This document shows, piece after piece, positions 2,398 to 18,168 of a stretch of DNA of 32,000 nt. Origin of the DNA: Desulfotalea psychrophila LSv54. Lineage in GTDB: Bacteria > Desulfobacterota > Desulfobulbia > Desulfobulbales > Desulfocapsaceae. Numbering within the stretch: the first letter of the stretch is position 1; each line of letters opens with the position of its first letter. A program made the translations under genes and the position numbers. Under the pieces are notes generated by a model that was given only the letters and a program-made list of their open reading frames with translations, made no database searches and had not been told where the DNA came from. The stretch is from NCBI RefSeq assembly GCF_000025945.1, contig NC_006138.1, positions 3,060,001 to 3,092,000 of the forward strand, in the 5' to 3' direction.

Positions 2398-2436
2398 CAT
2401 TTACCAATACCGCTAACCTTACCGGGTCTCAACAGA

Positions 2437-3609: not shown

Positions 3610-3812
3610 CAGTATACATTAATATAATTCATGATTTACAGAAGAAAATCACCCTGAGCCGTTTTAGAGCTGGGACATGGGTTCATCTGCTCCTGCAACA
3701 ACAGGAAGGACACATTATAAAAACAGTCAACAATCTTTTCTTATTCAAAACAACGCTATATTAACGGCAATCTTTTGCTTTTAAAAAACCTTAAGTAGTT
3801 ATACAATATAAT

Positions 3813-3840
3813 TTCTGACAGTTAGATTCTGTCACCCCAG
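3813..3840. repeat. Upstream copy of a roughly 28-nt direct repeat bracketing the omptin gene; contains the inverted repeat TGACAG-N7-CTGTCA
   Basis: TTCTGACAGTTAGATTCTGTCACCCCAG aligns with 4902..4930 at 26 matched positions with a few single-base gaps. It lies immediately downstream of a TATAAT hexamer at 3807..3812. Confidence 0.45.
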
Positions 3841-3926
3841 CAGGGCCAACCTCAAGTTGGCACCGCCACAACCGGTACGTTTGTTTTTTATCAAGACTGC
3901 TTACAAAGAAAGCCAAGAGGAGAGGT

Positions 3927-4907
3927 ATGGGCAAGGGTATTTTGATTACGGCCGGGACTGTCATTGCCCTTATGGGCATAGTAACCGGCACCAGTGCCAC
4001 CCCTCTTCCGACGAATCAATCGATTGAAGGAAACAGAACCGTCCAGCTCGGTAAAGAGCAGATTGAGGTAAGCGGTCGACTCGGTTTTGGCAGGATCTGG
4101 GGAGAATCCAGGGAACTGGTATATGAAAAGAACAGAAAGGTCAGCGAATTAATCTGGCCCTTGGACAACGTCTATATGCTCAACGCCGGAGTTTCCGTAC
4201 AGCCCAGTTCGTGGTTAAAGCTCAATGCAGATATCTGGTTTGCCGTCAGCAATGGCGGCGGCAAGATGGATGATTATGACTGGACTGCCCAGGGCATGGA
4301 CTGGACCCACTGGTCACACGATGAGGATACCCCCCTTGATAGAGGTATTATGTTTGACATTAACGCTGAAATTCCCTTTTACCATATAAACAGAACCACC
4401 TTCTCCGCATTTTTAGGGCTGAAACAGGATAACTGGAAGTGGAATTCCTACGGAGGAAGTTACATCTATTCCCATAATGCTTTTCGAGACTCTACCGGCA
4501 CCTTTCCCGATGATGAGCTTGGTATAAGCTATGAACAGTGGTGGACAGTACCCTATATCGGACTTGGTTTTGCATCAAGTTTAAGCAATTGGGATTTTTC
4601 GGGACGCCTTATCGCTTCGCCCTTTGTCCAGGGAAGGGATGAGGACATGCATCATCTCAGAAACCTTTTCTTTGAGGAGGACTTTGACAACAGCTTTATG
4701 TGGAGTATAGATCTGGCAGCAAACTATAAAATTGACCCTCAATGGGGGATTATCGGGGCCTTTAAATACCAATATTACCAAGAGGCCTTGGGCACAACAA
4801 CCATGACCAATATGGTCACCGGGGAACAAGTGTTTTTTGGCGGAGATGCTGCCGGAGGCGATAACAGAGCACTCTTACTTACCCTTTCCCTGGACTATCA
4901 GTTCTAG
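3927..4907 (+). CDS. Omptin-family (peptidase A26, OmpT/Pla-like) outer-membrane protease
   Basis: It has a signal-peptide-like N-terminus and blocks that align by eye with E. coli OmpT: ELVY..KVSELIWPL, GGKMDDYDW (Asp-x-Asp catalytic pair), GGSYIYS..FRDSTGTFP, VPYIGLG, GRDEDMHH (Asp-x-His catalytic pair), and a C-terminal aromatic residue (..LDYQF). GAGGAGAGG Shine-Dalgarno sequence upstream. Confidence 0.8.
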   Translation: MGKGILITAGTVIALMGIVTGTSATPLPTNQSIEGNRTVQLGKEQIEVSGRLGFGRIWGESRELVYEKNRKVSELIWPLDNVYMLNAGVSVQPSSWLKLNADIWFAVSNGGGKMDDYDWTAQGMDWTHWSHDEDTPLDRGIMFDINAEIPFYHINRTTFSAFLGLKQDNWKWNSYGGSYIYSHNAFRDSTGTFPDDELGISYEQWWTVPYIGLGFASSLSNWDFSGRLIASPFVQGRDEDMHHLRNLFFEEDFDNSFMWSIDLAANYKIDPQWGIIGAFKYQYYQEALGTTTMTNMVTGEQVFFGGDAAGGDNRALLLTLSLDYQF

Positions 4908-4930
4908 ACAGTAGTTCTGTCACGCCCCAG
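4902..4930. repeat. Downstream copy of the direct repeat bracketing the omptin gene; overlaps its TAG stop
   Basis: TTCTAGACAGTAGTTCTGTCACGCCCCAG; see 3813..3840. Confidence 0.45.
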
Positions 4931-4969
4931 TCATCTGGTGACCACACGCCTCAAAAATATCTCCACAAA

Positions 4970-5965
4970 TTAATCCGCTATATGAACAATGGTTCGGCCC
5001 CTGAGCCTGCCGGCAAGCATCCCAACAATGGCATCATTGAGCTCAGACAGTGATATTTCCCTACAGATTTCCAGCAGACCTGCGGGCTTCCAAATCGTGG
5101 CAAGCCTATTCCAGAGGAGCTCTCTGGTCTGTAGCGGACAGTTCTGTGAATCAATACCCAAAAGAGAGATACCACGGAGAATAAAGGGATAAACGGTTAT
5201 ATCAAGATCAGCCGAGGCCACGTTACCGCAACAGGTCACGGCCCCCTCTGCCTTGGTCAGCTTGATAAGGTTGCTTAAGACTGTTCCGCCAACAGTGTCA
5301 ACGGCACCGGCAAAACACCCCTTTAACAGAGGACGCGGGCTGGCTGATTCAAGGTCCACCCGGGGAATAATTGCATCGGCTCCCAAAGACAAGAGAAAGG
5401 CCTCCTCTGCCTGTTTTCCTGAAACAGCCAAAACAGTATAGCCCAGCTGAGCAAGGATCGCCGTTGCCAGAGAGCCCACACCTCCCGAGGCACCGGAAAC
5501 AGCAATGGGTCCATCCTCGGGAGCAACAAACTGACTCAGCTTGAAAACAGATAGGGCTGCCGTTAAGCCTGCTGTGCCAAGAATCATTGCCTCCCTATGG
5601 GTCAGGCCCTGAGGTAGACGGACAAGCCAATCGACAGGCACCCTAATATAGTCGGCAAAACCACCAGCTGTATTCATGCCAAGGTCATAACCGGTGACCA
5701 CCACCCTATCCCCTGGCCTGAAAAGGGACGATTTTGAAGAGACAACGCTTCCCGTCGCATCAATTCCCGGAGTGTGGGGATAATTACGGGTAATCCCCCT
5801 GTTGCCGGAGACAGAGAGGGCATCCTTATAGTTCAAAGAAGAGTAACAGACCTTAACCAATACATCATTGTCGGGAAGATCACCAAGAGACCTTGTCTCC
5901 AGGCGACCGACAAAGCCATCAGCCTCTTCGCGGACAACAAATGCCCTAAAGGTATTTTCAACCAT
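4970..5965 (-). CDS. YhdH/AcuI-type MDR-family NADPH:quinone oxidoreductase / acrylyl-CoA reductase
   Basis: 331 aa, collinear by eye with E. coli YhdH: SSLNYKDAL..G, PGIDATG, GTAGLTA, VSGASGGVGS (Rossmann motif), AVSGK, DTVGG, EISLSE..GR near the C-terminus. Confidence 0.85.
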   Translation of the reverse strand: MVENTFRAFVVREEADGFVGRLETRSLGDLPDNDVLVKVCYSSLNYKDALSVSGNRGITRNYPHTPGIDATGSVVSSKSSLFRPGDRVVVTGYDLGMNTAGGFADYIRVPVDWLVRLPQGLTHREAMILGTAGLTAALSVFKLSQFVAPEDGPIAVSGASGGVGSLATAILAQLGYTVLAVSGKQAEEAFLLSLGADAIIPRVDLESASPRPLLKGCFAGAVDTVGGTVLSNLIKLTKAEGAVTCCGNVASADLDITVYPFILRGISLLGIDSQNCPLQTRELLWNRLATIWKPAGLLEICREISLSELNDAIVGMLAGRLRGRTIVHIAD

Positions 5966-6009
5966 TTTTCCTCCAAGAAAAAAATATAAGGTGCTAACTC
6001 ATCAGGGTT

Positions 6010-6210
6010 CTATTCAAGCTCAGATCCCTCAAGATCACTGCCCGCTCTTTTATTGATAAAATAACCCAGCACCAAAGATACGGGAAGAAAAACGGCCATA
6101 AAAGCAAGAAAGGCCTGCAGGCCCTGCAGATGTAACAGGTGCCTAGAGACCAAAACGCCAGCCCCACCAGCTATAACTGTCTTTAAAAAATTCATCCAAC
6201 TCAACTCCAT
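6010..6210 (-). CDS. Small hypothetical membrane protein (two hydrophobic segments)
   Basis: ORF only. It has hydrophobic stretches VIAGGAGVLV and AFLAFMAVFLPVSLVLGYF. The likely start is the internal ATG at 6195 (MNFLKT), preceded by GGAG. No family recognised. Confidence 0.3.
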   Translation of the reverse strand: MELSWMNFLKTVIAGGAGVLVSRHLLHLQGLQAFLAFMAVFLPVSLVLGYFINKRAGSDLEGSELE

Positions 6211-6341
6211 TTAAGGTAAACAACAAAAGTTTCATACGATCTCTTATTTACTCCATATGGAAACAAAATGCACGGGAGGGGAGGGTCTTGAATATTACTG
6301 ACTGAGCCCCCAAACTCTTCACTGGGCAGAATATCGGACTA

Positions 6342-6626
6342 ATGAGAAAACTGATAAAGGCGAAAGATGCGCAAAGCTGTACCTGGGATTATACAGAGTC
6401 TACCAAAGACCATGATATCTTTAAGATAAGCGCCAACACAGCGCTTTACAAGCAAAAGAGAATAGGTCTAGCGCTCCCCTACAAATTGCGTCATACCGTA
6501 TGGGCTATGGCTGGAATCTATCTTGCCTTCTACCTCTTCTCATACCCACTATTTGACCTCTACAAGGTCGCTATGCCACAATCAGTGATTAAAGAGAACA
6601 TGTACCGATATGATATCCTCACCTGA
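6342..6626 (+). CDS. Hypothetical protein with one predicted TM segment
   Basis: ORF only, with hydrophobic segment VWAMAGIYLAFYLFSYPLF. No family recognised. Confidence 0.25.
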   Translation: MRKLIKAKDAQSCTWDYTESTKDHDIFKISANTALYKQKRIGLALPYKLRHTVWAMAGIYLAFYLFSYPLFDLYKVAMPQSVIKENMYRYDILT

Positions 6627-7201
6627 AATCCTAATTATAGGGCAGATTCCACCTATCGTGGCACGCCGAGTTCTATAAAGTTCAGCTTCATAGATGTTGG
6701 GTCCCTAATGATTGGGTGCTCAAAATGGAGAATAGATTAAGGCCTACTGTTAAGCTATAGGAATAATCTGTTAGAAATTGAAAATAGCATAGGGTCTGAA
6801 GAAGAGACAGTCCAACAGGCCTTGTTAACCAATAACCCCTACCCAGTTTTTCACGATACAACCTTGCCCAAGGCGGCCTCCACAATCAGCCTCCCTTTGC
6901 AGCAGAAATCTCCTGGCAAATCAGCATCATAATGAGACATGTCGTTAAGCTAGCGGTTTTTTCTTCGCCCATGACAGAGCGGACATAGCTGATACCATAA
7001 AATTTATCACCCATCATTTTCGAGTTTAACCTTCGCCACAGAAACAGCACCATCTCCCCAAAAACAGTGGACATATACAACAAAATCGTGTAACTAGCAC
7101 CCTGACTAATCTGTCAGTAGCAAGATAGATCAAGCCCCCATAAAGATTGAAGAAACGAAAGCTGGAACTACTTCCTGCTCTATATACTGGAGAAATACGA
7201 C

Positions 7202-9283
7202 GTGTTGAAGAAAATGAAGTTAAAAACCAGAATGTTGCTCATCATCTGCACAGTGATGGCCCTGGCCCTTACCACCACCATCGGTATAGTGACCAGCATG
7301 TCCGGAAAATTGGCAAAGCAAGAGGCCCTCGAAAAGGCGGAGGAGATGGCCTACCGCTACGGTGGAACTGTGAGGGCGGATGTGAACATCGCAGCAAATG
7401 CGGCCCGCACCCTGGCCCAGGTTTTTGAGGGGATAAAAACCAGTTCGGCAGGATTAGAGAACGACAGGACGCTCCCCCAGCGACAGCTCATGAATCAACT
7501 ATTGAAACAGGTTCTTGTTAAAAACCCACATTTTTATGGAGTATGGTCGATTTGGGAGCCCAATGCCCTGGATGGCAGAGATAAGGTCTTTGCTAATACA
7601 GAGGGCCATGACAGCACCGGGCGATTTGTACCCATTTGGGATCGATACTCAGGCAGGCCAGAATCGAGGATCTGTTCGAAGTATGAGCATGAAGGAGAAG
7701 GCGATTACTACCTTATTCCGCAGAGAACAGGAAAAGAGGCTATTACCGAGCCCTATACCTTCAACGTCGCCGGCCAGGATTATCTGATGGCCACGGTAAC
7801 CGTTCCCATCATAGTTGACGGCAGAGTTTTAGGCGTGGTGGGTATCGATATCGCCCTGAAAACCTTCCAAGAAACCTTCGCTGGAATTAAGATCTACGAA
7901 ACGGGATATCTCTCCATCGTCTCCAACAGCGGCCTGTATATTTCCCATCCCAATGGGGACAGACTTGGAGAGGACTTCTTTGCCATGGATCCATGGGCAA
8001 AGGAGTTTCGCCAGAAGATTAAGAGCGGAAAACCCTTTATAACAGAGAACTTTTCAAAAACCCTGCACGACAGGGTCATCAGAATCAGTGCCCCAATCTC
8101 TATTGGCCGAAGCGACAGCCCTTGGGCGGCCATCATCAATATTCCCGAGAAGGAGGTCTTAAAAGATGCCCACGCCATCAAGAACACATGCATTCTCGTC
8201 GCCATCATCTCAATGATTGTCCTTATGATAACAGTCTACTTTTTCACAGGACAGATCATCAGACCAATTCTAAGGGCCATAACCTTTGCCGAGACTGTAG
8301 CAAAGGGTGATCTTAGCAAGACCATTACCACCCGGAGAGAGGATGAGATAGGCACCCTTATTACGGCCCTGAACAACATGGTAACAAGACTGAGCTCCAT
8401 GTTCCGGGATATTTCGGCAGACGTGACCCAGCTCTCATCGTCATCGGCGGACCTCTCCGCGGTCTCCACTCAGATGTCTACGGGTGCCCATGACACCACG
8501 GAAAATACAGATAGTGTGGCAGCGGCCGTAGAAGAGATGAGCACCAATATGAGTTGTGTGGCAGCAGGTGCCGAGCAGTCCTTCCAGAACATCAACAGGG
8601 TAGCGGCGGCAACGGAACAAATAACAGGGGCCATTGAACAAATCGCCCGCAATTCGGAAGAGGCGCGGAACGTCAGCAAAGAGGCCGTATTCAGCGCCCA
8701 GAGATCCTCGGCCAAGGTAAAGGCACTGGGAACCATAGCCCACGAAATCAATACGGTGACGGAGGTAATCACCGAGATATCCGCCCAGACAAATCTTCTT
8801 GCCCTGAATGCCACCATTGAGGCGGCACGGGCCGGAGACGCGGGTAAAGGTTTTGCCGTGGTGGCAAACGAGATCAAACATCTGGCATATCAAACCGCCG
8901 AAGCCACCCAGGAAATAAAAGAAAAGATCGAGGGCATCCAGACCTCCACCGATGAAACTGTCACGGAGATAGGACATATTTCCGAGGTAATTTTTTGCAC
9001 AAATGAAATTGTCTCCTCCATCGCCGAGGAGGTAAATGAACAATCGGCTGCCACCCGGGAGATATCCGAGAGTATAAGCCAAGCATCCCTCGGCCTGAAA
9101 GAGGTCAGCGACAATGTAGCCCAGAGCTCCAATGTAGCCAAGATGATCTCAGAGGACGTCGGGCACGTACATCAGGCAGCCGAAGAGATAGCCGACAGCA
9201 GCTCCGATGTTAAAAGAAACGCAGAAGAACTCTCCGACCTGTCGACCCAGCTAAAGAAGATGGTTAGTCAGTTCAAGGTATAG
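7202..9283 (+). CDS. Methyl-accepting chemotaxis protein with a periplasmic Cache-type sensor and a HAMP domain
   Basis: N-terminal TM, then about 300 aa of Cache-like periplasmic region, a second TM, and HAMP ([19 protein letters not shown]). It carries the highly conserved signalling hairpin [41 protein letters not shown] start at 7202 with GGAG 9 nt upstream; an alternative ATG lies at 7214. Confidence 0.92.
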
Positions 9284-9331
9284 ACATTAAGCGTAGTACA
9301 ATCACTGCAAAAAGCATGAGTTAATGCCAGA

Positions 9332-9360
9332 GCCGGTGTCCAGCCCCCTTGGACACCGGC
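9332..9360. terminator. GC-rich hairpin between convergent genes (possible bidirectional terminator)
   Basis: GCCGGTGTCCA-GCCCCCT-TGGACACCGGC forms a perfect 11-bp stem between the MCP stop (9283) and the nitroreductase stop (9453). Neither side has a clear U-tract. Confidence 0.4.
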
Positions 9361-9452
9361 CAGCCATCCAGACAAATTTCGAAAAATCCACCCTTGTTAT
9401 TACACATGGAGCCCATGTTCCCCCTCCAATCAATGACGGTTGCCAATAAGGT

Positions 9453-10082
9453 TTAAAATGAAATTATGATTTCATCATAGTTTCTTCTCCACTTGGCTGG
9501 CTGTAACTCCAAACCTGGCTTCCTATAACCTACGGCCAACAACAGAGGAACCCAATAGTTATTGGGGATCTTGAACTCCTTACGAACAGCCTCATGATCA
9601 AAGCCGTCCATGGGATGTGTTTCCAGGCCAAGAGCTGTGGCTGCGTACATAAGACTCATGGCAAAAAAACCGGCGTTCTTGGCTGCAAAGGCAAGGTTTG
9701 CGTCGGGACTCCAGTTATAGAGAGAGTTTGTGGCACCGAGGAACCAATCCCGTTGTTCCAGTTGCATGGCGCCGGATTTGACCATCTCTTCCCAGTTTTT
9801 TTCAAATACCGGATATCCCTCCTGCCAACCACTTTTATCAGCAAGGACAATGAGCACAACCGGTGCCTCAGCAACCTTGGCCTGATCCCAGGCCAGGGAT
9901 TTCAGCCTTTCCTTTTCTTCCACATTTCGTAGCACCATCAGATTCCAGGGCTGGAGATTGAAACTGGAAGGTGTGTCTGCTGAAGCATCTATCATCTCCC
10001 GCAAAAGGTCTTCTGGTACGTCTCTATCACTGTCAAAAAAATTTATGGCCCGCCTCTTTTTGCTTATCTCTTGAAAATTCAT
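9453..10082 (-). CDS. Nitroreductase-family NAD(P)H-flavin oxidoreductase
   Basis: Nitroreductase-fold motifs RRAINFF and PSSFNLQPW. I prefer the ATG at 10082 (MNFQEISKK), preceded by AAAGGAGAGAGGGA, over the listed TTG at 10115. Confidence 0.85.
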   Translation of the reverse strand: MNFQEISKKRRAINFFDSDRDVPEDLLREMIDASADTPSSFNLQPWNLMVLRNVEEKERLKSLAWDQAKVAEAPVVLIVLADKSGWQEGYPVFEKNWEEMVKSGAMQLEQRDWFLGATNSLYNWSPDANLAFAAKNAGFFAMSLMYAATALGLETHPMDGFDHEAVRKEFKIPNNYWVPLLLAVGYRKPGLELQPAKWRRNYDEIIISF

Positions 10083-10370
10083 CTCTATCCCTCTCTCCTT
10101 TGGCTGGTTTAGCAAACGTCAGAGCCACTACGCCTATCGAGGTTTGTAGCCTGATCATCTGCGGAAATGCTTCATAAGAAGCGTCGCACAAAATGAAGAG
10201 AGGTGTCAAGCTTGAGGCCTGTCCCTGCCAATCAATTGAGGAATTTTTGGTCTTTCATGGGATTTGCCCTGAGATAACCATCCCTGCCCATATAGAACAG
10301 GGAAAGTTATCTCTTTTTAGGGGGCAAACCCGGTGCCCTCAAACCAAGTCAGGCAGAATCAGGCCCAAAC

Positions 10371-10637
10371 TCATCTGCCATCTACAACAGGAACAAGCAA
10401 AGCAATTACATAAAGATCTCCTTCACTTCTAAGAGAATGCATTGTTCCAGCAGGGGCAATAAAAGATTCTCCTACATTCAATTCTACTTCTCCATCTTCT
10501 AAAACTCCAAAGCCGGAGCCTTTTATACAATAAAATATTTCATCCTGTTTCGCGTGTTTATGCAGAGGAACTTTTTTTTCTGAGGGGATATGATATACAT
10601 TTTCCACAATAGACTCTTTAATAGAATTCAAATCCAT
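10371..10637 (-). CDS. Cupin-domain protein (small, single domain)
   Basis: Cupin motifs PLHKHAKQDEIFYCIKGSG and APAGTMHSL. I prefer the ATG at 10637 (MDLNSIK), with a perfect AAGGAG 7 nt upstream, over the listed start at 10679. Confidence 0.75.
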   Translation of the reverse strand: MDLNSIKESIVENVYHIPSEKKVPLHKHAKQDEIFYCIKGSGFGVLEDGEVELNVGESFIAPAGTMHSLRSEGDLYVIALLVPVVDGR

Positions 10638-10892
10638 ATTCTTACTCCTTAGTTGTTTGATTACACGTTGATACCACAAAATTTTATGAAGTTTACTAAC
10701 GTGTTAAATCCATTTTAGATTATTTTATCCTAGCTACCTTACTACAGATAAACTCGTCCACTTATCTTCCTGGCATGGGGTGTTTTTATTTGCAGGAACG
10801 CTCTTTACATGGCAAGGATAACACTATAGGCGTTATGATCAAGTACGCACTATTTTGTGCTATAGTATCAAAAAGGAAACTTAGAGGATAAA

Positions 10893-11216
10893 ATGATAAT
10901 AAAAAGCCCCTGCCCAGTAACAACAACTCTTTCTGTCATCGGTGGGAAATGGAAACTCATTATTTTATATATTATCAGAGACGAGAAGAAGCGATTCGGG
11001 GAAATAAAAAAAATCATTCCAGCCATTACCCAAAAAATGTTGACCAAACAACTCCGGGAATTAGAATGTGACGGAATAATACATCGAAAAGTATATCCTG
11101 TTGTACCGCCCAAAGTAGAGTATTCACTGACGAAACATGGCCATTCACTGACACCAATAGTAGATGCAATGGCTATATGGGGTGAGGCTCATAGTCAATT
11201 TGGCCCTGAAAAGTAA
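10893..11216 (+). CDS. HxlR-family winged-helix transcriptional regulator
   Basis: [65 protein letters not shown] is the canonical HxlR pattern. The gene is divergent from the cupin gene. Confidence 0.9.
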
Positions 11217-11242
11217 CAGTAGGGTCAATATAGGAAATCTCT

Positions 11243-11499
11243 CTATGGGTCGAATGGCCCCAGCACAATAGAAAAATCATATATACAAAAATTCTGCCCT
11301 GAGCCGCCCCAGCCCCTTCTCTCCACATTGGCATGGCCGCTGATGATCAAACCGACCTGCCCATGGATCAGGGCAAGCAGGTAGTTCGTAAGTCCAGGGG
11401 TAACATCAGTATCGGCAATGGTCTGACAGGGGTCCGAACGGACAAGGCGATTATTGCAACGCCAGATTACCGATGAAGGTGGCCAAACAGTGACGTCAT
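11243..11499 (-). pseudogene. Truncated, frameshifted remnant of an Old Yellow Enzyme (YqjM-type NADH:flavin oxidoreductase) N-terminus
   Basis: The minus-strand frame reads ..NNRLVRSDPCQTIADTDVTPGLTNYLLALIHGQVGLIISGHANVERRGWGGSGQNFCIYD... B. subtilis YqjM (from memory) reads KNRIVMSPMC....[32 protein letters not shown]..LGIW. The ATG (11497..11499) overlaps the TAA of the upstream gene (TAATG) but is in another frame (MTSLFGHLHR*). The reading frame ends at 11243, only about 85 codons in, whereas this family runs to more than 330. Confidence 0.6.
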
Positions 11500-12155
11500 T
11501 AGTTCAAGCCCTTAATTTTTTTTAGGGCGAGCAGAGTCTCTTCAGGCTCCGTACGGTAAGAGTAATCGGGGTTGACATCAACCGAGGCAATGACACCATC
11601 CTGATCGATAAGATAGCGGGCAGGCATGGCCAAAGTCCAGGAGTCGTCTCCGTTGAGACGTTCCAGATCCACCTCAAAGGAGCGATAAATCTCCTTGAGA
11701 TCTTCAGGGATGGGGTAAACAAGACCGAAGAGTCCGGCTACCCTGTTGCCGGTGTCGGTAAGGATTTCAAAACCAAGTTCCGAGTCCCGGACAATTTGCC
11801 GACTAAAGGGCTGCCTCTGGGGAGAGATGGCCAGAATGGTTGCTCCCTCCAATTTAATTTGCGGAAGGACCCCGTTCAGAGCTTCCAGCTCTGCAAGGCA
11901 GTAAGGTCACCACTGTCCTCGGAAAAAGGTGAGCACAAGAGGCCCCTTCTCCAAATAGGAGGAGAGGGGGATAGCGTTGCCAGTAGTATCGGCAAGGGTG
12001 AAATCTGGCACCTGATCTCCAACCTTCAGCACCTTGCCGAGGATACCGGAGTGCTTCAGATCTTCATTGACTCGGTGCATGATCTTAATCACCTCTACAG
12101 ATGCACTCTCTGCGAACTCGGTGCGGATGGCGTCAAGTTTGTCTTGTAGTTTCAT
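11499..12155 (-). CDS. Peroxiredoxin-like (AhpC/TSA thioredoxin-fold) selenoprotein; the TGA at 11907..11909 is read as selenocysteine (W-U-P-Y-C)
   Basis: The two listed ORFs are in the same frame (657 nt = 219 codons) and are separated only by TGA. Read-through gives ..GPLVLTFFRGQW-U-PYCLAELEAL..ILAISPQ.., which matches the WCPYC active site of the roughly 215-aa peroxiredoxin-like family. GAGGA Shine-Dalgarno sequence upstream of the ATG at 12155. Confidence 0.8.
11877..11893 (-). promoter_or_regulatory. SECIS-like hairpin downstream of the in-frame UGA
   Basis: On the minus-strand RNA, UGA is followed by 13 nt and then CAGAGC-UGGAA-GCUCUG, a perfect 6-bp stem with a G-containing apical loop that starts 19 nt after the UGA. 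Confidence 0.5.
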
Positions 12156-12424
12156 GGAACTGTCCTCTGCTTAAGAGTTAGTCTAATCTCTTCTCAACTG
12201 GCTTCGCCAGAATGGCACGGCCGAGACAAGCCAAAGAATCCCCCTACTGTGCTCATTGCCCAGAATCCAGCTGGTCATCTCGTTCTCTTTCAGTATACCT
12301 CCCCCATGATATCACGATGTCCCTGCAGGCTCAAATCCAGGCCGAGGAGAGACCGTTAGCAAAGGCAAGCATCCTCTCTGAGAGAGAATACCTGCTCTAA
12401 TGCTGAACAGCTATCCTGAAGCGA

Positions 12425-13006
12425 TCATCGCCTTACACTTACCATGGCCAGACCAACCACCTCGTCAATGGATGGCCGATCGGCGCCGCCCTTGACCATA
12501 ACAAGCACGCCAACCAAGAGGGCAAAAAGGTAGTTTGTCAGGCCCTTAATATGCTTCTCTTTGGGGATATGCCCCTGGACCTGAGCGGCGCGGAGGCAGA
12601 GCTCAAAATCAGCCTTTTGCAAATCCCAGTGGTACTCTAACAGCTTTAGGGCCATCTCACCAAGCTGCGACCTCTCAACCACCGTGGTGACCAACAGACA
12701 ACCATTGCCGCTTCTTGCGTAGGCATAATCAAGCCGATAACGAAAGAACTCCTCGATATTTGCCAGACCCAGGGGCTGGCGACGCAGCACATGCCCCCCC
12801 CCCTGATCAATGGCCCGGACATAATTATCAAGACATTCACTAAAAAGACCATCTTTACTACCGAACTCCTGATACATGCTATGCTTATTAAGCTTGGTCG
12901 CCTTAACCAAGTCATTAACAGAGGCCCCTTTATAACCCTTATCCAGAAACTCTAAGGTAGCTGCGTCCAGAACTTTCTGGGTATCATACTCTTTATGTCT
13001 ACCCAT
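12425..13006 (-). CDS. TetR/AcrR-family transcriptional regulator
   Basis: N-terminal HTH: FLDKGYKGASVNDLVKATKLNKHSMYQEFGSKDGLF. I prefer the ATG at 13006 (MGRHKEY), preceded by GAGGAGGAGAG, over the listed TTG at 13024. Confidence 0.9.
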   Translation of the reverse strand: MGRHKEYDTQKVLDAATLEFLDKGYKGASVNDLVKATKLNKHSMYQEFGSKDGLFSECLDNYVRAIDQGGGHVLRRQPLGLANIEEFFRYRLDYAYARSGNGCLLVTTVVERSQLGEMALKLLEYHWDLQKADFELCLRAAQVQGHIPKEKHIKGLTNYLFALLVGVLVMVKGGADRPSIDEVVGLAMVSVRR

Positions 13007-13025
13007 CTCTCTCCTCCTCTTCAAC

Positions 13026-13040
13026 TGTCACTATATGACA
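13026..13040. promoter_or_regulatory. Palindromic operator candidate upstream of the TetR gene
   Basis: TGTCA-CTATA-TGACA lies 20 nt upstream of the preferred TetR start codon, a typical position for TetR autoregulation. Confidence 0.35.
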
Positions 13041-13095
13041 AAAGGTCCTTCTAACATGAAAAATTAAAGGGCTAAAAAATCACCCTCTGGCAACG

Positions 13096-14175
13096 CTAAT
13101 CCCGCTCAGCGCCACAGTGCTGGCAGTGAGGCAGAAGGGCATGACGAATCTTATGGCAAACCGGACACTCCTCATGAAGGCAGGTACCGCAGGCAGGACA
13201 GGTATATGCCTCATCCTCACCGAGGTACTCCCTCTGCAGGGCTACCTTACCCACTGTCCTTCGGGTCCAGTAGAGAAACTTACGGGGCCCGCGCCGGATG
13301 GGATACTCACAGACCGGACAGAGAAAACATTCATAGGCCTCTCGATACTGTTTTGTCAACCACTGTGCCTTAGGAAAGGCCACCACCCTGATAAAGTGGA
13401 TAAGGAGTCTGGCCACCGCAATAAGGAGAACGCCGATGAGAATATACTTAAAATATTTTTTAGGGAAATACTCATGGATGACCAGGGTGACCTTGAGCAG
13501 GGTCGCTCCCCCGAAGGCGAAAAAAAGTGGGAAATAGATACTTCCACGTTTTTTAAGGATCAAAATGGCGGCCAGAACGAGAAGAGGAAGGAGGATAAGG
13601 AGTTGCAGAGCCGCAAGCTTCAACCTATGGGCCCGATTGAGCCTATTATACTCTGCCCGAGCGGGTTTGCGTTGCTTATCCAGGCTCTGTTCCAGGGCCC
13701 TCTTCTCCCCTTCAAGCCCTTGCTTTTCGGCCATCAACTTCGACAGCTCCGTACTAAAGCCCTGATAGTTTTCCTGACTCTGGAGAAATTTGCTCAGGGT
13801 GGTTGAGAGATCACTCTGCTCCGTATCCGGCAGGGCAACTCCCTTCTGAATGCTCAGTTTCTGCAGCTCAATAAGCTGCTGGATGGTCTGCTGAAGGTTC
13901 TGGGAGCTATCGCCGACAACCCGCTGATCCTCCTTCATGCTGACAATCCGCCGGCCCAGATCGGTTATCTCCCCCTTAAGGGTTGTGCTCTTCCCCACCA
14001 GAGCAGAATCTATATGCTGTTTCTCAATCTCCACATAACGCGGCCCCCTGATGGACTTGATATCCTGCACCAGAAAACCAAGAGACCAGAAGATCAGAAC
14101 GGCCAGACTCAGGGTAAAAAAATGGGTGGCAAAACGATTTATCCACGGCCCCTTGGGCTTCTGTTCACTCTTCAT
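13096..14175 (-). CDS. Hypothetical 4-TM membrane protein with a roughly 150-aa coiled-coil loop and a C-terminal Cys-rich double zinc-ribbon-like tail
   Basis: TM1 is FATHFFTLSLAVLIFWSLGFLV. A heptad-like Q/L/E/K-rich segment follows, then three more hydrophobic segments. The tail carries CFLCPVC, CPACGTC, CPVC and CQHC. No family recognised. Confidence 0.7.
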   Translation of the reverse strand: MKSEQKPKGPWINRFATHFFTLSLAVLIFWSLGFLVQDIKSIRGPRYVEIEKQHIDSALVGKSTTLKGEITDLGRRIVSMKEDQRVVGDSSQNLQQTIQQLIELQKLSIQKGVALPDTEQSDLSTTLSKFLQSQENYQGFSTELSKLMAEKQGLEGEKRALEQSLDKQRKPARAEYNRLNRAHRLKLAALQLLILLPLLVLAAILILKKRGSIYFPLFFAFGGATLLKVTLVIHEYFPKKYFKYILIGVLLIAVARLLIHFIRVVAFPKAQWLTKQYREAYECFLCPVCEYPIRRGPRKFLYWTRRTVGKVALQREYLGEDEAYTCPACGTCLHEECPVCHKIRHALLPHCQHCGAERD

Positions 14176-14229
14176 CCCTCATCCCCTCTTCTATGTTTTG
14201 TTGATTGATCTGGTGATCCTGCCGTTTAA

Positions 14230-14335
14230 CACCGATTTTGCAATAGGCTTTGATGGGCACGCTCCGCTTCGCCACTTCGCCACTTCGCTACCGCTTCGCT
14301 GTTGCCCATCCTACGGGCTGTGCCCATAAGGAGGG
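14230..14335. repeat. REP/MITE-like structured intergenic repeat, copy A (full length, with a 33-nt internal degenerate 8-mer tandem insert at 14270..14302)
   Basis: It shares a 19-mer, CACCGATTTTGCAATAGGC, with copy B. It shares a 25-mer, AGGCTTTGATGGGCACGCTCCGCTT, plus TGCCCATCCTACNGNCTGTGCCCANAAGGAGG (29 of 32 positions) with copy C. Confidence 0.8.
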
Positions 14336-14357
14336 CGTAGAATCGTGCTAATCCAGG

Positions 14358-14981
14358 CTAGTTAAACTCTACCATAATCTGATATACCTGTGGATTCAGT
14401 CTCTGCATATATTTATTGTCCGAGGAGAATCCCCCATCTCCCATGATCTGCCTGTAATCCTCCCCATCCCTATCTCCTGTGGCGCGGAGCCTGATAATTA
14501 CCCGATTTGCAGTCCCGCCAAATGCCTGCTCAAGAAGACCACTTTTCCAGGAAAGCACCGTTCCACCATAATCCCAGCCAAATCCTGCCAGCTTAAATGG
14601 CCTGCCATTCAGCTCTTCTATCTCCTGCAGACTGCTACCCATGGCGATGCCGTGGACTGATCTCCATAGACGGCCATTAAGAGTTAGCCGAGCCGGAGCC
14701 GTCTGTCCCTGATCTTGCCAGAGTATCTCGACAGAGTCACCGGAGTCGGCAAAGAGAACCTCTGTGCCTGTCTCATACATACCCTCCCCCAGGCTTATGG
14801 GCGTATCCTTAACGGCCTCCTCTCCATAGATCCTTATCAGGTCAGACCTACCTGTCTGAGGCCCTATCTCCCCAACCTGATCCTTTGAGAAGAGAAAATT
14901 TCCTGCCAGGGCCGGGGCGGAGCAGAGGAGGATCAATAAAAGAGAGATTAAAAGAGATCTGCGGTGGATAGTTCCTAGCAT
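14358..14981 (-). CDS. Hypothetical secreted protein
   Basis: 207-aa ORF with a signal-peptide-like N-terminus (RRSLLISLLLILLCSAPALAG) and an AAAGGA Shine-Dalgarno sequence. No family recognised. A decayed copy of its 5' end lies at 15285..15429. Confidence 0.7.
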   Translation of the reverse strand: MLGTIHRRSLLISLLLILLCSAPALAGNFLFSKDQVGEIGPQTGRSDLIRIYGEEAVKDTPISLGEGMYETGTEVLFADSGDSVEILWQDQGQTAPARLTLNGRLWRSVHGIAMGSSLQEIEELNGRPFKLAGFGWDYGGTVLSWKSGLLEQAFGGTANRVIIRLRATGDRDGEDYRQIMGDGGFSSDNKYMQRLNPQVYQIMVEFN

Positions 14982-15067
14982 GTTTTTCCTTTATGTGATT
15001 TATGATTTTTTGAGATTATATTAAATTGGTGGTTCAAGGGTCTGGCTTGGCAAAATGGCGGGATTAC

Positions 15068-15135
15068 CACCGATTTTGCAATAGGCATTGATGTAGGCTG
15101 GGCAGCAGTGCAACGGCGAAGCGGAGTGTGCCCAT
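15068..15135. repeat. REP/MITE-like repeat, copy B (left arm direct, GC-rich core inverted)
   Basis: CACCGATTTTGCAATAGGCATTGATG is followed by GGCGAAGCGGAGTGTGCCC. That core is the reverse complement of the GGGCACGCTCCGCTTCGCC core of copy A, with one mismatch. Confidence 0.75.
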
Positions 15136-15223
15136 CTTCTGCTCATCGCCAAGACAGACTTATTTTTTGAATTTTAACAAAAATAGTCTGCGCCCTTTTC
15201 AACAACACCTTAGCAGATCGGCA

Positions 15224-15279
15224 GGCTTTGATGGGCACGCTCCGCTTTGCCCATCCTACAGACTGTGCCCACAAGGAGG
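15224..15279. repeat. REP/MITE-like repeat, copy C (lacks the left arm and the tandem insert)
   Basis: GGCTTTGATGGGCACGCTCCGCTTTGCCCATCCTACAGACTGTGCCCACAAGGAGG. Its internal complementary arms are GATGGGCA/TGCCCATC and GGGCAC/GTGCCC. Confidence 0.8.
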
Positions 15280-15284
15280 AATCT

Positions 15285-15429
15285 CTCATCAAACCATCCC
15301 TGCCCGCCTGAACTACCATCTCACCCGCCTAATCTTTTGAAGAAAGAAAATCACCTGCCGAGGCAGAGGACAGAGAAGAAAAACAGGGAGAAATATTAAA
15401 ATAAATATGCGGTGCGCAGTTCCTCACAT
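15285..15429 (-). pseudogene. Decayed partial duplicate of the 5' end (signal-peptide region) of the 14358..14981 gene
   Basis: Nucleotides 15331..15435 align with 14881..14985, for example CTTTTGAAGAAAGAAAATCACCTGCC against CTTTGAGAAGAGAAAATTTCCTGCC, and GCGGTGCGCAGTTCCTCACAT against GCGGTGGATAGTTCCTAGCAT. The second codon is TGA (M*GTAHRIFILIFLPVFLLC against MLGTIHRRSLLISLLLILLC). Confidence 0.6.
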
Positions 15430-15514
15430 TTTTTAGTAGCGTTGTATCTGAGGGTATATACCCACAGGTTGAGCAATTCTTGAATAGCATTTTGTAGTGC
15501 AATTAGTATATTTT

Positions 15515-16426
15515 CTATTTAAGAAACCCATAGAATTTACTAATAGATGACGCAAGAAGGCTGCCTGCTACACCCACATTTATATCCCACGCAGTTGTAC
15601 CCGTTTTAGAAATCATTTTTTTTACCCAAGTTGACACATTGCTACCGAAATTTCTTATTTTATGTTCTTCACAATCCTTGTCTAAGACTATAGCATCATT
15701 TAATTCATTTATATCTTTAGTACTTACACCATTTTCTCTAAGCAATGACTTCAAAGATTCTAAATCTTTTTTACTAACAACGTTGTTTATATTTTGCGAA
15801 TTAGAATTACCTACAACTATTGTAGTATTATCGCCAAATACTGCGTTATTAAATAGCTCGGACACACCAACCTCCTTTGACCTTGTTTTCATAGATTGAG
15901 AATCTAACTCTTCCGTAAAATTTTCAGAAACATCAAGCATAAACCCAAGCAGCCTCGAGGTCACCTCAGTTATAATTTGAGTCATTGCACCAGCTGAATA
16001 ACACCCCCAAGCTGATTCCACATAGAATTTGTCAGCCAGCCCGTTAGCTATATAACTATACATTTCAGGGGCTATTGTCATTTTAATATCACTTCCCCTA
16101 GAATACTCCTCTACAACAGCAATACTTTTTGTCATGTATGCTGTTTCAATTTTATCTCTGAGGTCATCTTCTAAATGCAAAGTTGGAAGAATATGATTTG
16201 TGGCTCGACAAAAACCATTACTGATATTGCCTTGTACTGTTAATCGCAGAATTCTATATTCAGGTAGCAAATCTTTGTTTGGATATCCTTGAAGCTCCCC
16301 GTTTACCCATTCAAGTAATTTTTTCTCTCCAAGTTTATGAAGCAACACTTTTGTTTTTAGCAAAGCCCCTGACAAATTAGACTCACCTGAGCTAAGCAAT
16401 TCAATTATATCTTCAATTATTTTCAT
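15515..16426 (-). CDS. AbiTii-domain-like protein (putative abortive-infection / anti-phage protein) on an AT-rich insert
   Basis: The N-terminus, IIELLSSGESNLSGALLKTKVLLHKLGEKKLLEWVNGELQGYPNKDLLPEYR, matches the pattern I associate with Pfam AbiTii (..LLrKakvLA.rLg...l..Wv..ELnGY....lPdYR). It also has a mid-protein Asn/Ser-rich stretch and a C-terminal G/S-rich hydrophobic helix, GVAGSLLASSISKFYGFL. The gene is clearly more AT-rich than its neighbours by eye. No obvious Shine-Dalgarno sequence. Confidence 0.65.
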   Translation of the reverse strand: MKIIEDIIELLSSGESNLSGALLKTKVLLHKLGEKKLLEWVNGELQGYPNKDLLPEYRILRLTVQGNISNGFCRATNHILPTLHLEDDLRDKIETAYMTKSIAVVEEYSRGSDIKMTIAPEMYSYIANGLADKFYVESAWGCYSAGAMTQIITEVTSRLLGFMLDVSENFTEELDSQSMKTRSKEVGVSELFNNAVFGDNTTIVVGNSNSQNINNVVSKKDLESLKSLLRENGVSTKDINELNDAIVLDKDCEEHKIRNFGSNVSTWVKKMISKTGTTAWDINVGVAGSLLASSISKFYGFLK

Positions 16427-16956
16427 ATTTTTATGTATGACGATTAGATAATTGTATTATTGAGTGACAAGAAATTATTTTTCCTCTTTTATATGTTTTG
16501 CGATAAATCAATTTACAGAAAATGTCCATCTACACCTACCAACAGCCTCTCTACCCCAACTATTTAAAACCTAAAAAATACTAGCACCACCATTACTCCA
16601 TCGCAAGGATATTGACAAGAGGGGGTTAGTAGCACAGGGAGAGGTGGAAGCAGAGAAAGTGCGCGATTCACAAAAAAAAGGTTCGGGAGGCAATGAGGGC
16701 GAAAATATGGGAGGAAAACTTGACTCAAAAAGGGGCTGGTCTAAATTTTATCTCTACATTTCAAATGTTTGTCCAGACAAACAGTATTTAGCAACGACAC
16801 AATGAGCAGATAGTCACTACTGAATGGCTCTGTTAGCAATGAACAGGCCTTACTTTTTCTAAAATTTTACTGTTGCCTATTTTTCATTTTCCCTGTCATA
16901 TCGATTGTTCTGTAGATAAGGATTTTTATGTAATTTTATTTTGAAAGGAAGAGACA

Positions 16957-18105
16957 ATGGTGAATATGCTCAGGTGCTCTATTATTTTATACATCATACT
17001 CCTCCTCTCTCAATGCCTTCTCCTACTCTTAGTTGAAAGCGACGGGCTCAAACTCCTCGTCCTAGCAAACTGCATCCTCACCCTCCTGCTGAGCGGCGTA
17101 CCTTACCTCCATCATCGGCAGAGAGAGTTGGCCGACAGGGACCATGAGGCAAGCCCGGCGAAGAGGGAGATCTCTTGGCCAGTATTTCAAAAAATAGTTG
17201 AAGATATGCCCATCATGTTTGATGCTGTGGATGAAAACGGGGTGGTCCTCTTCTGGAATCGGGAATGCGAGAAGGTTACCGGATACAGCAGTGAAGAAAT
17301 TGTCGGCAACCCCCATGCCCTGGAGCTCTTCTACCCAGATCGGCTTCAGCGCGCCAGAAACCTTGCAGAGTTCCTTCAGTTCAACGGCAGCTACCGTGAC
17401 TGGGAGGTGGACCTCCTCTGCAAAGACGGTACAACGCGCACCATCTCCTGGTCAAATACCAGTCGTGAAGCCCCCATCCCCGGCTGGTACACCTGGGGTA
17501 CGGGCATAGATATCACCGAAGACAGAAGAGCAGAGCAACTCCTTATGGAGCTTGCCAGCCGGGACGAACTGACAGGACTGCTTAACCGACGAAAGATAAT
17601 GGAAATTCTTGATACAGAGATCAAAAGGGCCGCAGACAACAAGACAGCCCTGACCCTCTGTCTGGTGGACATCGACCACTTCAAGAAGGTTAATGATGTT
17701 CATGGGCACAGTGCCGGAGATACAGTTCTTAGATATGTGGCTGATACCATCAGAAGAGGCATTCGTAAGGCGGATAGGGTGGGACGTTATGGTGGTGAAG
17801 AGTTCTGCATCCTCCTGCCCCATACCTCCATTTCCGAGGCCAGCTTAGTCTTAGAGCGCATCCGCCAAGACATAGCAGCCATGACCTTTCCCCTGGATTC
17901 AAGTGACGAGCTTTCCCTCTCCATAAGCCTTGGACAGGTTCAGTATGCTCCAGCCATAAGAAGCCCCCGCCAACTGATCGACCTTGCCGACACCGCCCTC
18001 TACCGGGCAAAACGATCCGGCAGAAACAGACTCTGCACTGCTGAAGCAGATCTACCATTCAGCAAGCTACAAGAAGGGGCTGATTGCTCTCTCAGCGGGG
18101 TATAG
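16957..18105 (+). CDS. Membrane-anchored PAS-domain diguanylate cyclase (GGDEF)
   Basis: Two N-terminal hydrophobic segments. PAS region: MFDAVDENGVVLFWNRECEKVTGYSSEEIVG. GGDEF domain: LTGLLNRR, DIDHFKKVNDVHGHSAGD, RYGGEEF with an RKAD I-site. AAAGGAAGAG Shine-Dalgarno sequence. Confidence 0.9.
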   Translation: MVNMLRCSIILYIILLLSQCLLLLLVESDGLKLLVLANCILTLLLSGVPYLHHRQRELADRDHEASPAKREISWPVFQKIVEDMPIMFDAVDENGVVLFWNRECEKVTGYSSEEIVGNPHALELFYPDRLQRARNLAEFLQFNGSYRDWEVDLLCKDGTTRTISWSNTSREAPIPGWYTWGTGIDITEDRRAEQLLMELASRDELTGLLNRRKIMEILDTEIKRAADNKTALTLCLVDIDHFKKVNDVHGHSAGDTVLRYVADTIRRGIRKADRVGRYGGEEFCILLPHTSISEASLVLERIRQDIAAMTFPLDSSDELSLSISLGQVQYAPAIRSPRQLIDLADTALYRAKRSGRNRLCTAEADLPFSKLQEGADCSLSGV

Positions 18106-18168
18106 AGACATGATTCTACTTGCCCCGGCCATTCCACCGAAGGAGAAATGGTCGAGGAAGACAAAAAA

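What the first reader, a model, noticed from the sequence alone, without database searches (positions are those of the whole stretch)
15440..16956. AT-rich insert carrying a lone AbiTii-like gene: candidate uncharacterised single-gene anti-phage module
The 303-codon minus-strand ORF (15515..16426) is visibly much more AT-rich than all neighbouring genes. It has no Shine-Dalgarno sequence. Unusually long non-coding DNA flanks it on both sides: about 85 nt downstream and 530 nt upstream. It lies between a cluster of REP-like repeats with a decayed gene fragment and a PAS-GGDEF gene, a layout typical of horizontally acquired cargo.

Its N-terminal 70 or so residues (..SNLSGALLKTKVLLHKLGEKKLLEWVNGELQGYPNKDLLPEYR..) match the signature I recall for the AbiTii domain (Pfam PF18864, from the lactococcal AbiT abortive-infection system). 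The C-terminus ends in a G/S-rich hydrophobic helix (GVAGSLLASSISKFYGFL) that could act on the membrane.

There is no AbiTi-like partner. The only tightly linked candidate is a 32-codon basic ORF (16431..16529, MDIFCKLIYRKTYKRGKIISCHS..) that ends 4 nt before the start codon, and that could be chance in AT-rich DNA. To my knowledge the mechanism of such stand-alone AbiTii-domain proteins is not characterised.
Basis: partly seen in the sequence, partly recalled or inferred. Interest (0 to 1): 0.7.

Follow-up and report, generated by a model that had tools for sequence, protein, structure and literature searches.

The report
Lone AbiTii-domain candidate phage-defence gene
An AT-rich, horizontally acquired single gene in Desulfotalea psychrophila joins a known phage-sensing-type domain (AbiTii) to an undescribed helical domain, and because its relatives travel as integron cassettes and prophage-edge cargo it is a credible but untested one-gene anti-phage candidate.

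Summary
A 303-codon minus-strand ORF lies at 15515-16426. Its GC3 is 0.27, against 0.41-0.61 for 21 neighbouring genes. It has no Shine-Dalgarno sequence and about 530 nt of non-coding DNA on each side.

Residues 2-185 are a full-length AbiTii domain (Pfam PF18864, E 1.8e-34). Residues 190-303 form a separate domain absent from Pfam, with no PDB or viral fold match. It defines about 1,700 clusters at 50% identity and is also fused to other N-termini.

No AbiTi partner or other conserved neighbour exists, and the 32-codon upstream ORF is chance.

The window is Desulfotalea psychrophila, but the closest homologs (63% or less) are marine Gammaproteobacteria. In relatives, dxs directly abuts the epimerase, so window 2367-18168 is lineage-specific.

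Homologs are Vibrio integron cassettes (the first cassette beside intIA in V. cholerae), prophage-edge genes (E. coli CFT073, next to ssrA), or neighbours of CRISPR and PIN genes.

Defence is therefore well supported by context but untested. The proposed membrane helix is too short and too polar for a canonical transmembrane segment, so the effector mechanism stays open. This is a new variant of a known kind, of moderate interest.

The parts
15515..16426 (-). Intact 303-aa gene with an N-terminal AbiTii domain and a new C-terminal domain. It is identical to an NCBI protein named 'AbiTii domain-containing protein [Desulfotalea psychrophila]'.
   Evidence: ORF and translation. 100% match to P0001. 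All 35 columns that are invariant across the 47-sequence family alignment, which includes this protein, carry the family residue here.
15872..16423 (-). AbiTii domain, residues 2-185. It has an alpha+beta fold and contains the invariant Glu44 in the WVxxELxGY motif. It is the presumed sensor or regulatory module.
   Evidence: Pfam PF18864: E 1.8e-34, profile positions 1-182 of 189. PADLOC AbiTii: E 7.3e-32. AF2 pLDDT is about 74-92 over this domain (about 85-92 in its core), with helices and strands. Invariant residues.
15782..15859 (-). Conserved N/G/Q-spaced motif, residues about 190-215: LFNNAVFGDNTTIVVGNSNSQNINN. It is predicted disordered in the monomer.
   Evidence: F192, G198, N200 and G206 are invariant. 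N194, F197, T202, I203, V205, N209, Q211 and N215 are at least 90% conserved. pLDDT is 25-42. The motif is looser in non-AbiTii architectures.
15518..15781 (-). All-alpha C-terminal domain, residues about 216-303, ending in W..I..G.AGSLLA.A...YYGF. It is absent from Pfam and has no fold analogue. It is the presumed effector.
   Evidence: phrog_16090: E 1.5e-19. No Pfam hit. A profile search finds 1,716 clusters, including other fusions. Foldseek best E values are 1.5 and 2.2. Helix composition.
16427..16956 (.). 530-nt AT-rich upstream non-coding DNA, shared with the divergent PAS-GGDEF gene. It has no Shine-Dalgarno sequence, no Rfam family, no tandem repeats and no integron core site.
   Evidence: It has no similarity to any fetched locus.
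16431..16529 (-). 32-codon ORF upstream of the gene, judged to be a chance ORF.
   Evidence: No equivalent ORF in L001, L005, L006, L007 or L009. No PADLOC hit.
14982..15514 (.). 533-nt downstream non-coding DNA. It holds two REP-like copies (15064-15136 and 15223-15279), a 10-bp palindrome (15448-15467) and a terminator-like hairpin with a T-run on the minus strand (15354-15367). It has no attC site.
   Evidence: repeats; terminator-like; 2 found against 1.4 expected, so weak evidence; no R'/R'' pair and no attC-like fold.
2367..18168 (.). 15.8-kb lineage-specific variable region between dxs (429-2366) and the NAD-dependent epimerase (18169-19188). The AbiTii gene is its most AT-rich element.
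   Evidence: In L051, L052, L053, L062, L067 and L082 the dxs ortholog follows the epimerase within 80-340 nt. Other relatives hold 0.7-6.2 kb there. Gene content.

Best explanation
This is a horizontally acquired, self-contained one-gene module of the abortive-infection type.

Shown:
- The protein is a fusion of a complete AbiTii domain (residues 2-185) and a distinct C-terminal module of about 115 residues.
- The gene is compositionally foreign to Desulfotalea psychrophila and sits in a lineage-specific variable region.
- The family moves as a single gene. In Vibrio it is an integron cassette with its own attC site. In enterobacteria it is the outermost cargo gene of prophages. Elsewhere it lies in defence-type neighbourhoods.

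Inferred:
- In other proteins AbiTii sits N-terminal to HEPN RNase effectors, and in Lactococcus it works with the RNase-like AbiTi. By that analogy the AbiTii domain senses or is regulated by a phage product, and the constant C-terminal module is the effector that stops the infected cell.
- The module has no conserved catalytic-type residues (no invariant His, Cys, Ser or Glu). It consists of a conserved beta-prone N/G/Q motif followed by a six-helix bundle with invariant Trp, Tyr and Gly. The most likely action is therefore non-enzymatic: trigger-induced self-association that exposes the Trp/Tyr-rich terminal helices to perturb the inner membrane or another essential target. This last step is a guess, with probability about 0.3.
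- In D. psychrophila the copy is intact, but it lacks a Shine-Dalgarno sequence and cassette boundaries, so its expression level is unknown.
For: - Domain: Pfam AbiTii E 1.8e-34 over the full model; PADLOC AbiTii E 7.3e-32. Glu44 is invariant, consistent with the 'highly conserved glutamate' noted in PMC3710099.
- Modularity: the C-terminal profile finds 1,716 clusters at 50% identity. Besides AbiTii it is fused to pentapeptide repeats, a Zn-ribbon N-terminus and other unannotated N-terminal regions.
- Precedent for a sensor-effector layout: AbiTii-HEPN fusions and the two-gene AbiT system, whose AbiTi partner is predicted to be RNase-like.
- Horizontal transfer: GC3 is 0.273 against 0.41-0.61. 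The best homologs, at 63% identity or less, are Shewanella, Rheinheimera, Vibrio and Photobacterium. The gene is also AT-rich relative to its host in four of five other genomes. Synteny is broken in about 35 relatives.
- Single-gene mobility and defence context: it is the first cassette next to intIA in V. cholerae, followed by a SLATT_5 cassette, and it also lies among ParE/Phd and CcdAB cassettes. attC/R'-R'' boundaries were read directly from the sequence. In IMG/VR, 20 of 29 proviral copies lie within 1.5 kb of the provirus end, against 4.8 expected. In E. coli CFT073 it is the first gene after ssrA. Other copies lie next to Cmr, HNH and Fic genes or next to HEPN_Toprim_N. The pentapeptide+CTD relative lies among PIN_12, RNase H, TIR_2 and Abi_alpha genes.
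- Sporadic occurrence: 40 of 5,426 complete E. coli genomes carry it.
Against: - No experiment on any member was found. One relevant paper, Getz 2025, was not readable.
- In Lactococcus, AbiT is described as a two-component system, so an AbiTii-domain protein acting alone is not established.
- In this genome the neighbours are sensory and metabolic genes, not defence genes.
- No Shine-Dalgarno sequence, convincing promoter or attC site was found, so the copy could be poorly expressed.
- The effector idea has no structural support. Foldseek and PDB sequence searches found nothing.
- The terminal helix has a Kyte-Doolittle score of only 1.26 (family mean 0.93). Its apolar runs are at most 13-15 residues, and 45 of 50 members carry charged residues within it.
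Confidence: 0.55

Rival explanations
1. It is a prophage- or cassette-borne superinfection-exclusion protein. The C-terminal helices hold it at the inner membrane, and the AbiTii domain blocks DNA entry or an early step of incoming phages without killing the cell.
For: The gene sits at prophage edges next to the attachment site, where exclusion genes and morons are commonly found. The C-terminus is conserved, Trp/Tyr-rich and moderately hydrophobic.
Against: In other proteins AbiTii is fused to HEPN RNases, which are typical suicide effectors. The terminal helix is too short and too polar to be a tail anchor in most members. The same C-terminal domain is attached to unrelated N-termini, which suits an effector better than an anchor.
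Confidence: 0.15
2. It is a silent relic in this genome: a cassette or prophage gene that landed in the dxs-epimerase hotspot, lost its expression signals, and now does nothing in D. psychrophila, whatever the family does elsewhere.
For: There is no Shine-Dalgarno sequence. No attC site or integron promoter context is present. No credible promoter signal rises above background (7 found against 5.5 expected). REP-like repeats and a likely broken gene nearby suggest a decaying region.
Against: The ORF is full length and carries the family residue at every invariant column. GC3 of 0.27 shows little amelioration, which suggests recent arrival rather than long neutral decay. Genes without a Shine-Dalgarno sequence, and leaderless genes, can still be translated (general knowledge).
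Confidence: 0.2
3. It is not a defence gene at all. The family is selfish or accessory cargo with another role, for example an addiction-type toxin or a regulator (JGI names one homolog 'predicted transcriptional regulator').
For: One automatic annotation says so (P0054). Integron cassettes and prophage ends also carry many non-defence genes, such as the acetyltransferases and toxin-antitoxin pairs seen.
Against: No HTH or other DNA-binding Pfam domain was detected. The only characterised relative of the N-terminal domain is an abortive-infection protein. Copies recur next to SLATT, HEPN/Toprim, Cmr, PIN and TIR genes. No antitoxin-like partner is conserved.
Confidence: 0.1

Closest known systems
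Lactococcal AbiT (AbiTi + AbiTii), plasmid pED1 (Bouchard 2002, as summarised in PMC13064643)
   Same: The N-terminal 185 residues belong to the same Pfam/PADLOC domain family as AbiTii. AbiTii itself likewise has no PDB structural analogue, according to the 2026 review.
   Different: AbiT needs two genes. Here there is no AbiTi, either in the window or next to any homolog (and the context calls). This protein carries an extra C-terminal domain of about 115 residues that the review does not describe for AbiTii. The host is a Gram-negative sulfate reducer, and the closest relatives are Gammaproteobacteria.
AbiTii-HEPN fusion proteins (c2405 and Ymh families; Anantharaman et al. 2013, PMC3710099)
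   Same: Same architectural logic: an N-terminal AbiTii domain and a C-terminal module in one polypeptide, predicted to act as a stand-alone Abi protein.
   Different: The C-terminal module is not HEPN. There is no HEPN Pfam hit at E up to 1. The domain has no invariant Arg or His. It is a different, all-alpha domain with no fold match.
Single-gene defence cassettes of chromosomal integrons (for example Taranis = AbiJ_NTD5 + Abi_C; Darracq et al. preprint 10.1101/2024.07.02.601686)
   Same: In Vibrio the homologs are one-gene cassettes with attC sites, of the same size class and with the same 'variable N-terminal domain + effector' build as validated cassette systems.
   Different: AbiTii is not mentioned in that study (0 occurrences). 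The Desulfotalea copy has no integron, no attC site and no core sites.
Bab/Agp amyloid-signalling Abi system of E. coli (preprint 10.1101/2024.11.07.622273)
   Same: A short N/G-rich motif that is beta-prone and disordered in the monomer lies next to a small helical domain carrying a short hydrophobic helix, in prophage-borne defence loci.
   Different: Bab/Agp has two proteins that share the motif. Its motif is C-terminal and its hydrophobic helix N-terminal, which is the reverse of the order here. No sequence or fold similarity was detected. The resemblance is by analogy only.

Membership tests
AbiTii domain family (Pfam PF18864 / PADLOC PDLC02334) | Significant, near full-length match to the family HMM | tested here: met
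   120 bits against a cut-off of 27.6, E 1.8e-34, residues 2-185 on profile positions 1-182 of 189. PADLOC E 7.3e-32.
AbiTii domain family (Pfam PF18864 / PADLOC PDLC02334) | Globular alpha+beta domain of about 180 residues with a highly conserved glutamate (PMC3710099) | tested here: met
   The AF2 model shows mixed helices and strands over residues 2-169, with pLDDT about 74-92. Glu44 is the only invariant Glu in 47 homologs. That Glu44 is the glutamate meant in the paper is inferred, not mapped.
Lactococcal two-component AbiT system | An adjacent AbiTi partner gene | tested here: not met
   No PADLOC hit in nine flanking proteins and small ORFs. No neighbour is conserved in nine homolog contexts.
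Lactococcal two-component AbiT system | Confers abortive infection against phages | not testable with these tools
   Requires phage-challenge experiments.
AbiTii-HEPN fusions (c2405 / Ymh) | C-terminal HEPN domain with an Rx4-6H motif | tested here: not met
   No HEPN family among Pfam hits at E up to 1. No invariant Arg or His in the C-terminal domain.
Integron gene cassette | ORF followed by an attC site, bounded by complementary R'' (RYYYAAC) and R' (GTTRRRY) core sites | tested here: not met
   Met for the Vibrio homologs and for L009. In the window there is no GTTRRRY within 620 nt upstream, no complementary pair and no attC-like fold.
Membrane-spanning (TM) effector proteins | A hydrophobic helix of about 18-20 residues or more | tested here: not met
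   The best 19-residue Kyte-Doolittle score is 1.26 (family mean 0.93), below the classical 1.6. The longest apolar run is usually 12-13 residues, and 45 of 50 members have at least one charged residue in the helix. Peripheral or oligomer-dependent insertion is not excluded.
Amyloid-signalling Abi systems (BASS motifs; Bab/Agp) | The same short amyloid motif present in two adjacent gene products (a sensor and a Bell-type executioner) | tested here: not met
   Single gene, no partner. No Bell or HeLo Pfam hit. Only a conserved, disordered N/G/Q motif is present. Amyloid formation cannot be tested with these tools.

The most novel reading that the evidence does not exclude
The C-terminal module could be a new, widespread cell-death execution domain controlled by a built-in prion-like switch.

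In this reading, the invariant N/G/Q-spaced motif (FGDNxTIVVGxxNxQxxxN) is disordered in the monomer. When the AbiTii sensor meets its phage trigger, the motif would zip into an intermolecular cross-beta assembly. That assembly would release the Trp/Tyr-rich terminal helices to attack the membrane.

This would be a single-chain counterpart of HET-S or Bab/Agp amyloid signalling, spread as integron cassettes and prophage cargo across Proteobacteria.
Probability: 0.08. Interest if true: 0.8.

Novelty: new variant of a known kind. Interest (0 to 1): 0.45.

Why it matters
If the family protects against phages, it adds a compact 0.9-kb one-gene system whose effector is neither a nuclease nor a recognisable membrane protein.

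It would also define a new effector domain, found in about 1,700 sequence clusters and reused with several different N-terminal domains.

It would show that the AbiTii domain can work without AbiTi. That bears on how the long-unexplained lactococcal AbiT system senses phages.

Members occur in tractable hosts: E. coli CFT073, Shewanella oneidensis MR-1 and Vibrio cholerae. The question is therefore directly testable.

For Desulfotalea itself the find is modest. It marks one recently imported gene in an accessory hotspot between dxs and an epimerase gene.

Tried and rejected
- PADLOC PDC-S26: the weak hit (E 0.008) suggested a link to a defence candidate. The 390-aa pentapeptide+CTD protein does not match PDC-S26, so I treat the hit as spurious.
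- Abi_alpha: an Abi_alpha gene neighbours that relative, but hhalign gives probability 0.3%.
- Fold searches: the full model against PDB and BFVD, and the C-terminal domain alone against PDB, gave nothing below E 0.1. A profile search of PDB sequences found nothing.
- RNA antitoxin or riboswitch in the flanks: no Rfam match and no tandem repeats.
- tRNA or tmRNA attachment site in the window: none.
- 32-codon ORF as a partner: not conserved.
- attC or core sites in the window: none.
- Deposited phage genomes: no tblastn match.
- Phage genes encoding only the C-terminal domain: the pattern scan recovered only two already-known full-length copies. The phrog_16090 lead is unresolved, and many short database hits look like fragments.
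- The two PAS-GGDEF genes as duplicated island ends: only 39% identical, and only in the GGDEF domain.
- Target-site duplication: not assessable. The nearest available relatives are only about 74% identical in a housekeeping protein, and the reference genome's own species is absent from the collection.
Full report
**Observation**

It is the compositional outlier of the window. Its GC is 0.350 and its GC3 is 0.273, while the 21 other large ORFs have GC3 of 0.41-0.61. The low-GC tract runs from about 15400 to 17000.

The 22 nt before the ATG have no anti-SD complementarity: +1.2 kcal/mol, against -5 to -9 for most neighbours. The start codon is correct, because the N-terminus aligns residue for residue with all homologs.

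The upstream gap to the divergent PAS-GGDEF gene is 530 nt. The downstream gap to the next credible gene is 533 nt. It contains two of the three REP-like copies in the window (0.03 expected by chance). I could not confirm a 'decayed gene fragment'.

**Identity of the protein**

Residues 2-185 match Pfam AbiTii (PF18864) over essentially the whole model (E 1.8e-34, 120 bits against a cut-off of 27.6). They also match the PADLOC AbiTii model. The domain is therefore about 185 residues, not about 70.

The window is Desulfotalea psychrophila. An identical protein on a 3.52-Mb contig is already named 'AbiTii domain-containing protein'.

Residues 180-301 match only an uncharacterised phage family, phrog_16090 (E 1.5e-19). 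Nothing in Pfam or NCBIfam matches them.

The top 120 of the 295 homologs found are nearly all full length (about 300 aa) and are conserved along both halves. The C-terminal half consists of two parts:
- an invariant N/G/Q-spaced motif (FGDNxTIVVGxxNxQxxxN), which AlphaFold leaves disordered;
- a bundle of about six helices ending in W..I..G.AGSLLA.A...YYGF.

**The C-terminal module is a separate, portable domain**

A profile of the C-terminal module alone, searched against 1.84 billion representative proteins, finds 1,716 clusters (928 at E up to 1e-10). Most are AbiTii fusions. Others join the same module to pentapeptide repeats, to a Zn-ribbon/helical N-terminus, or to unannotated N-terminal regions.

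Across all architectures the invariant core is L, L, D, G, V, W, M, K, W, Y, G in the helical part. No His, Cys, Ser or Glu is invariant, so an enzymatic active site is unlikely.

No fold or sequence relative exists in PDB or BFVD. The module is not related to Abi_alpha.

The best 19-residue hydropathy is 1.26 (family mean 0.93). Apolar runs are mostly 12-13 residues. Charged residues interrupt the helix in 45 of 50 members.

**No partner gene**

Nine flanking proteins and small ORFs have no PADLOC hit. The 32-codon ORF is absent from five homologous loci. No Rfam family, tandem repeat array or tRNA lies nearby. Across nine independent homolog contexts, no neighbour is conserved.

**Origin in this genome**

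I anchored on the nearby aldolase gene and retrieved 80 related loci. The block TatC-aldolase-epimerase is conserved in about 35 Desulfocapsaceae/Desulfobulbaceae genomes. None has the AbiTii gene, the GGDEF gene, or the 207-aa and 359-aa genes.

In six relatives, including a Desulfotalea MAG, the dxs ortholog follows the epimerase within 80-340 nt. In others the gap is 0.7-6.2 kb. Window 2367-18168 is therefore a 15.8-kb lineage-specific variable region at a recurrent hotspot.

Its other genes are sensory or metabolic: two PAS-GGDEF genes, an omptin, an ADH, an MCP, a nitroreductase and a TetR regulator. It is not a defence island.

The closest homologs of the AbiTii protein are at most 63% identical and come from marine Gammaproteobacteria. 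The gene is also AT-rich relative to its host in Shewanella, Rheinheimera and Vibrio. Horizontal acquisition is well supported. Exact insert ends and target-site duplications could not be determined.

**How the family travels**

In V. cholerae the homolog is the first cassette of the chromosomal integron, in the order thrS-infC-rpmI-rplT-intIA then AbiTii then a SLATT_5 cassette. In other strains and in V. parahaemolyticus it lies among ParE/Phd, CcdAB and acetyltransferase cassettes.

The sequence shows the cassette boundaries directly. G|TTATGCATTAA lies about 30 nt before the ATG, and TGCATAAC plus a VCR-type attC site follows the stop codon. Remnants of the same complementary pair flank the lone copies in S. 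oneidensis MR-1, Rheinheimera and another lineage. The Desulfotalea copy has none.

Independently, 29 full-length copies occur in IMG/VR proviruses. Twenty of them lie within 1.5 kb of the provirus end, against 4.8 expected. In E. coli CFT073 the 35%-identical homolog is the first gene after ssrA at a prophage end. It occurs in only 40 of 5,426 complete E. coli genomes.

Other copies sit next to Cmr, HNH and Fic genes or next to a HEPN/Toprim gene. The pentapeptide+CTD relative sits among PIN, RNase H, TIR and Abi_alpha genes.

This is the distribution expected of a self-sufficient one-gene defence or competition module.

**Mechanism**

Published analysis treats AbiTii as an N-terminal domain fused to HEPN RNase effectors. 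The lactococcal system pairs it with an RNase-like AbiTi, and escape mutations map to capsid and early phage genes.

By analogy, I take the AbiTii domain as the sensor or regulator and the constant C-terminal module as the effector. The module looks non-enzymatic, so the favoured guess is trigger-induced self-association that damages the membrane or another essential target. Nothing computed here demonstrates this.

The conserved disordered N/G/Q motif next to a small helical domain recalls the validated Bab/Agp amyloid-switched Abi system. However, its defining features (two proteins sharing the motif, and a Bell-type domain) are not met.

**Comparison with what is known, and novelty**

The protein is a member of the AbiTii domain family. 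It is not a member of the two-gene AbiT system or of the AbiTii-HEPN fusions.

No paper in the searchable library mentions this architecture or PF18864. The integron-defence studies I could read do not include it. One relevant paper, Getz 2025, was not held.

I rate it a new variant of a known kind. It is a plausible and readily testable candidate defence gene with an undescribed effector domain. It is of moderate rather than high surprise, and its activity in Desulfotalea itself is uncertain.

Noticed in passing
window 2367-18168; compare L051-L082: The dxs-epimerase junction is a recurrent variable hotspot in Desulfocapsaceae/Desulfobulbaceae. The two genes are adjacent in six relatives. The gap is 0.7-6.2 kb in six others and 15.8 kb in D. 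psychrophila, where its GC is mosaic.
   Followed up: partly
window 14226-14334, 15064-15136, 15223-15279: Three copies of a REP-like palindromic element (core GATGGGCACGCTCCGCTT) bracket the 207-aa signal-peptide gene at 14358-14981. I did not examine their genome-wide distribution.
   Followed up: partly
L001 5960-6940 (S. oneidensis MR-1); L005; L009: Lone copies of the gene outside any integron still carry complementary cassette-end remnants (5' GTTATACG, 3' CGTATAA). This suggests integron cassettes that inserted at, or were stranded in, non-integron sites.
   Followed up: partly
L136 6051-6626; L007 7048-8232: The cassette or gene immediately after the AbiTii homolog encodes a SLATT_5 protein in V. 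cholerae and a HEPN_Toprim_N protein in V. fluvialis. These are further candidate defence cargo at the same spots.
   Followed up: no
window 13096-14175 (-): A 359-aa protein with no Pfam or PADLOC hit. On reading the sequence, it appears to have a long coiled-coil-like region, hydrophobic segments and a C-terminal cluster of CxxC pairs that resembles a Zn ribbon. Its GC is native.
   Followed up: no
window 11499-11852 and 11907-12155 (-): Two adjacent short ORFs read like the two halves of one thioredoxin-fold or peroxiredoxin-like gene, so this may be a frameshifted pseudogene. This is judged from the sequence only and was not tested.
   Followed up: no
window 3201-3600, 10401-11200, 29601-30000, 31201-31600: These are other low-GC patches (0.32-0.38). 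The one at 10401-11200 overlaps small ORFs at 10371-10679 and 10893-11216, which read like cupin-type and HxlR-type proteins (judged from the sequence only, no domain search run). They may be further imported pieces.
   Followed up: no
window 3927-4907 (+): An omptin-family outer-membrane protease gene (Pfam E 7.6e-59) lies inside the variable region of this sulfate reducer.
   Followed up: no
proteins P0124, P0129, P0144 and others; phrog_16090: Many database entries of 110-170 aa consist of the C-terminal module only. Some begin inside the AbiTii domain and look like fragments. Whether genuine stand-alone (possibly phage-encoded) versions exist is unresolved.
   Followed up: partly
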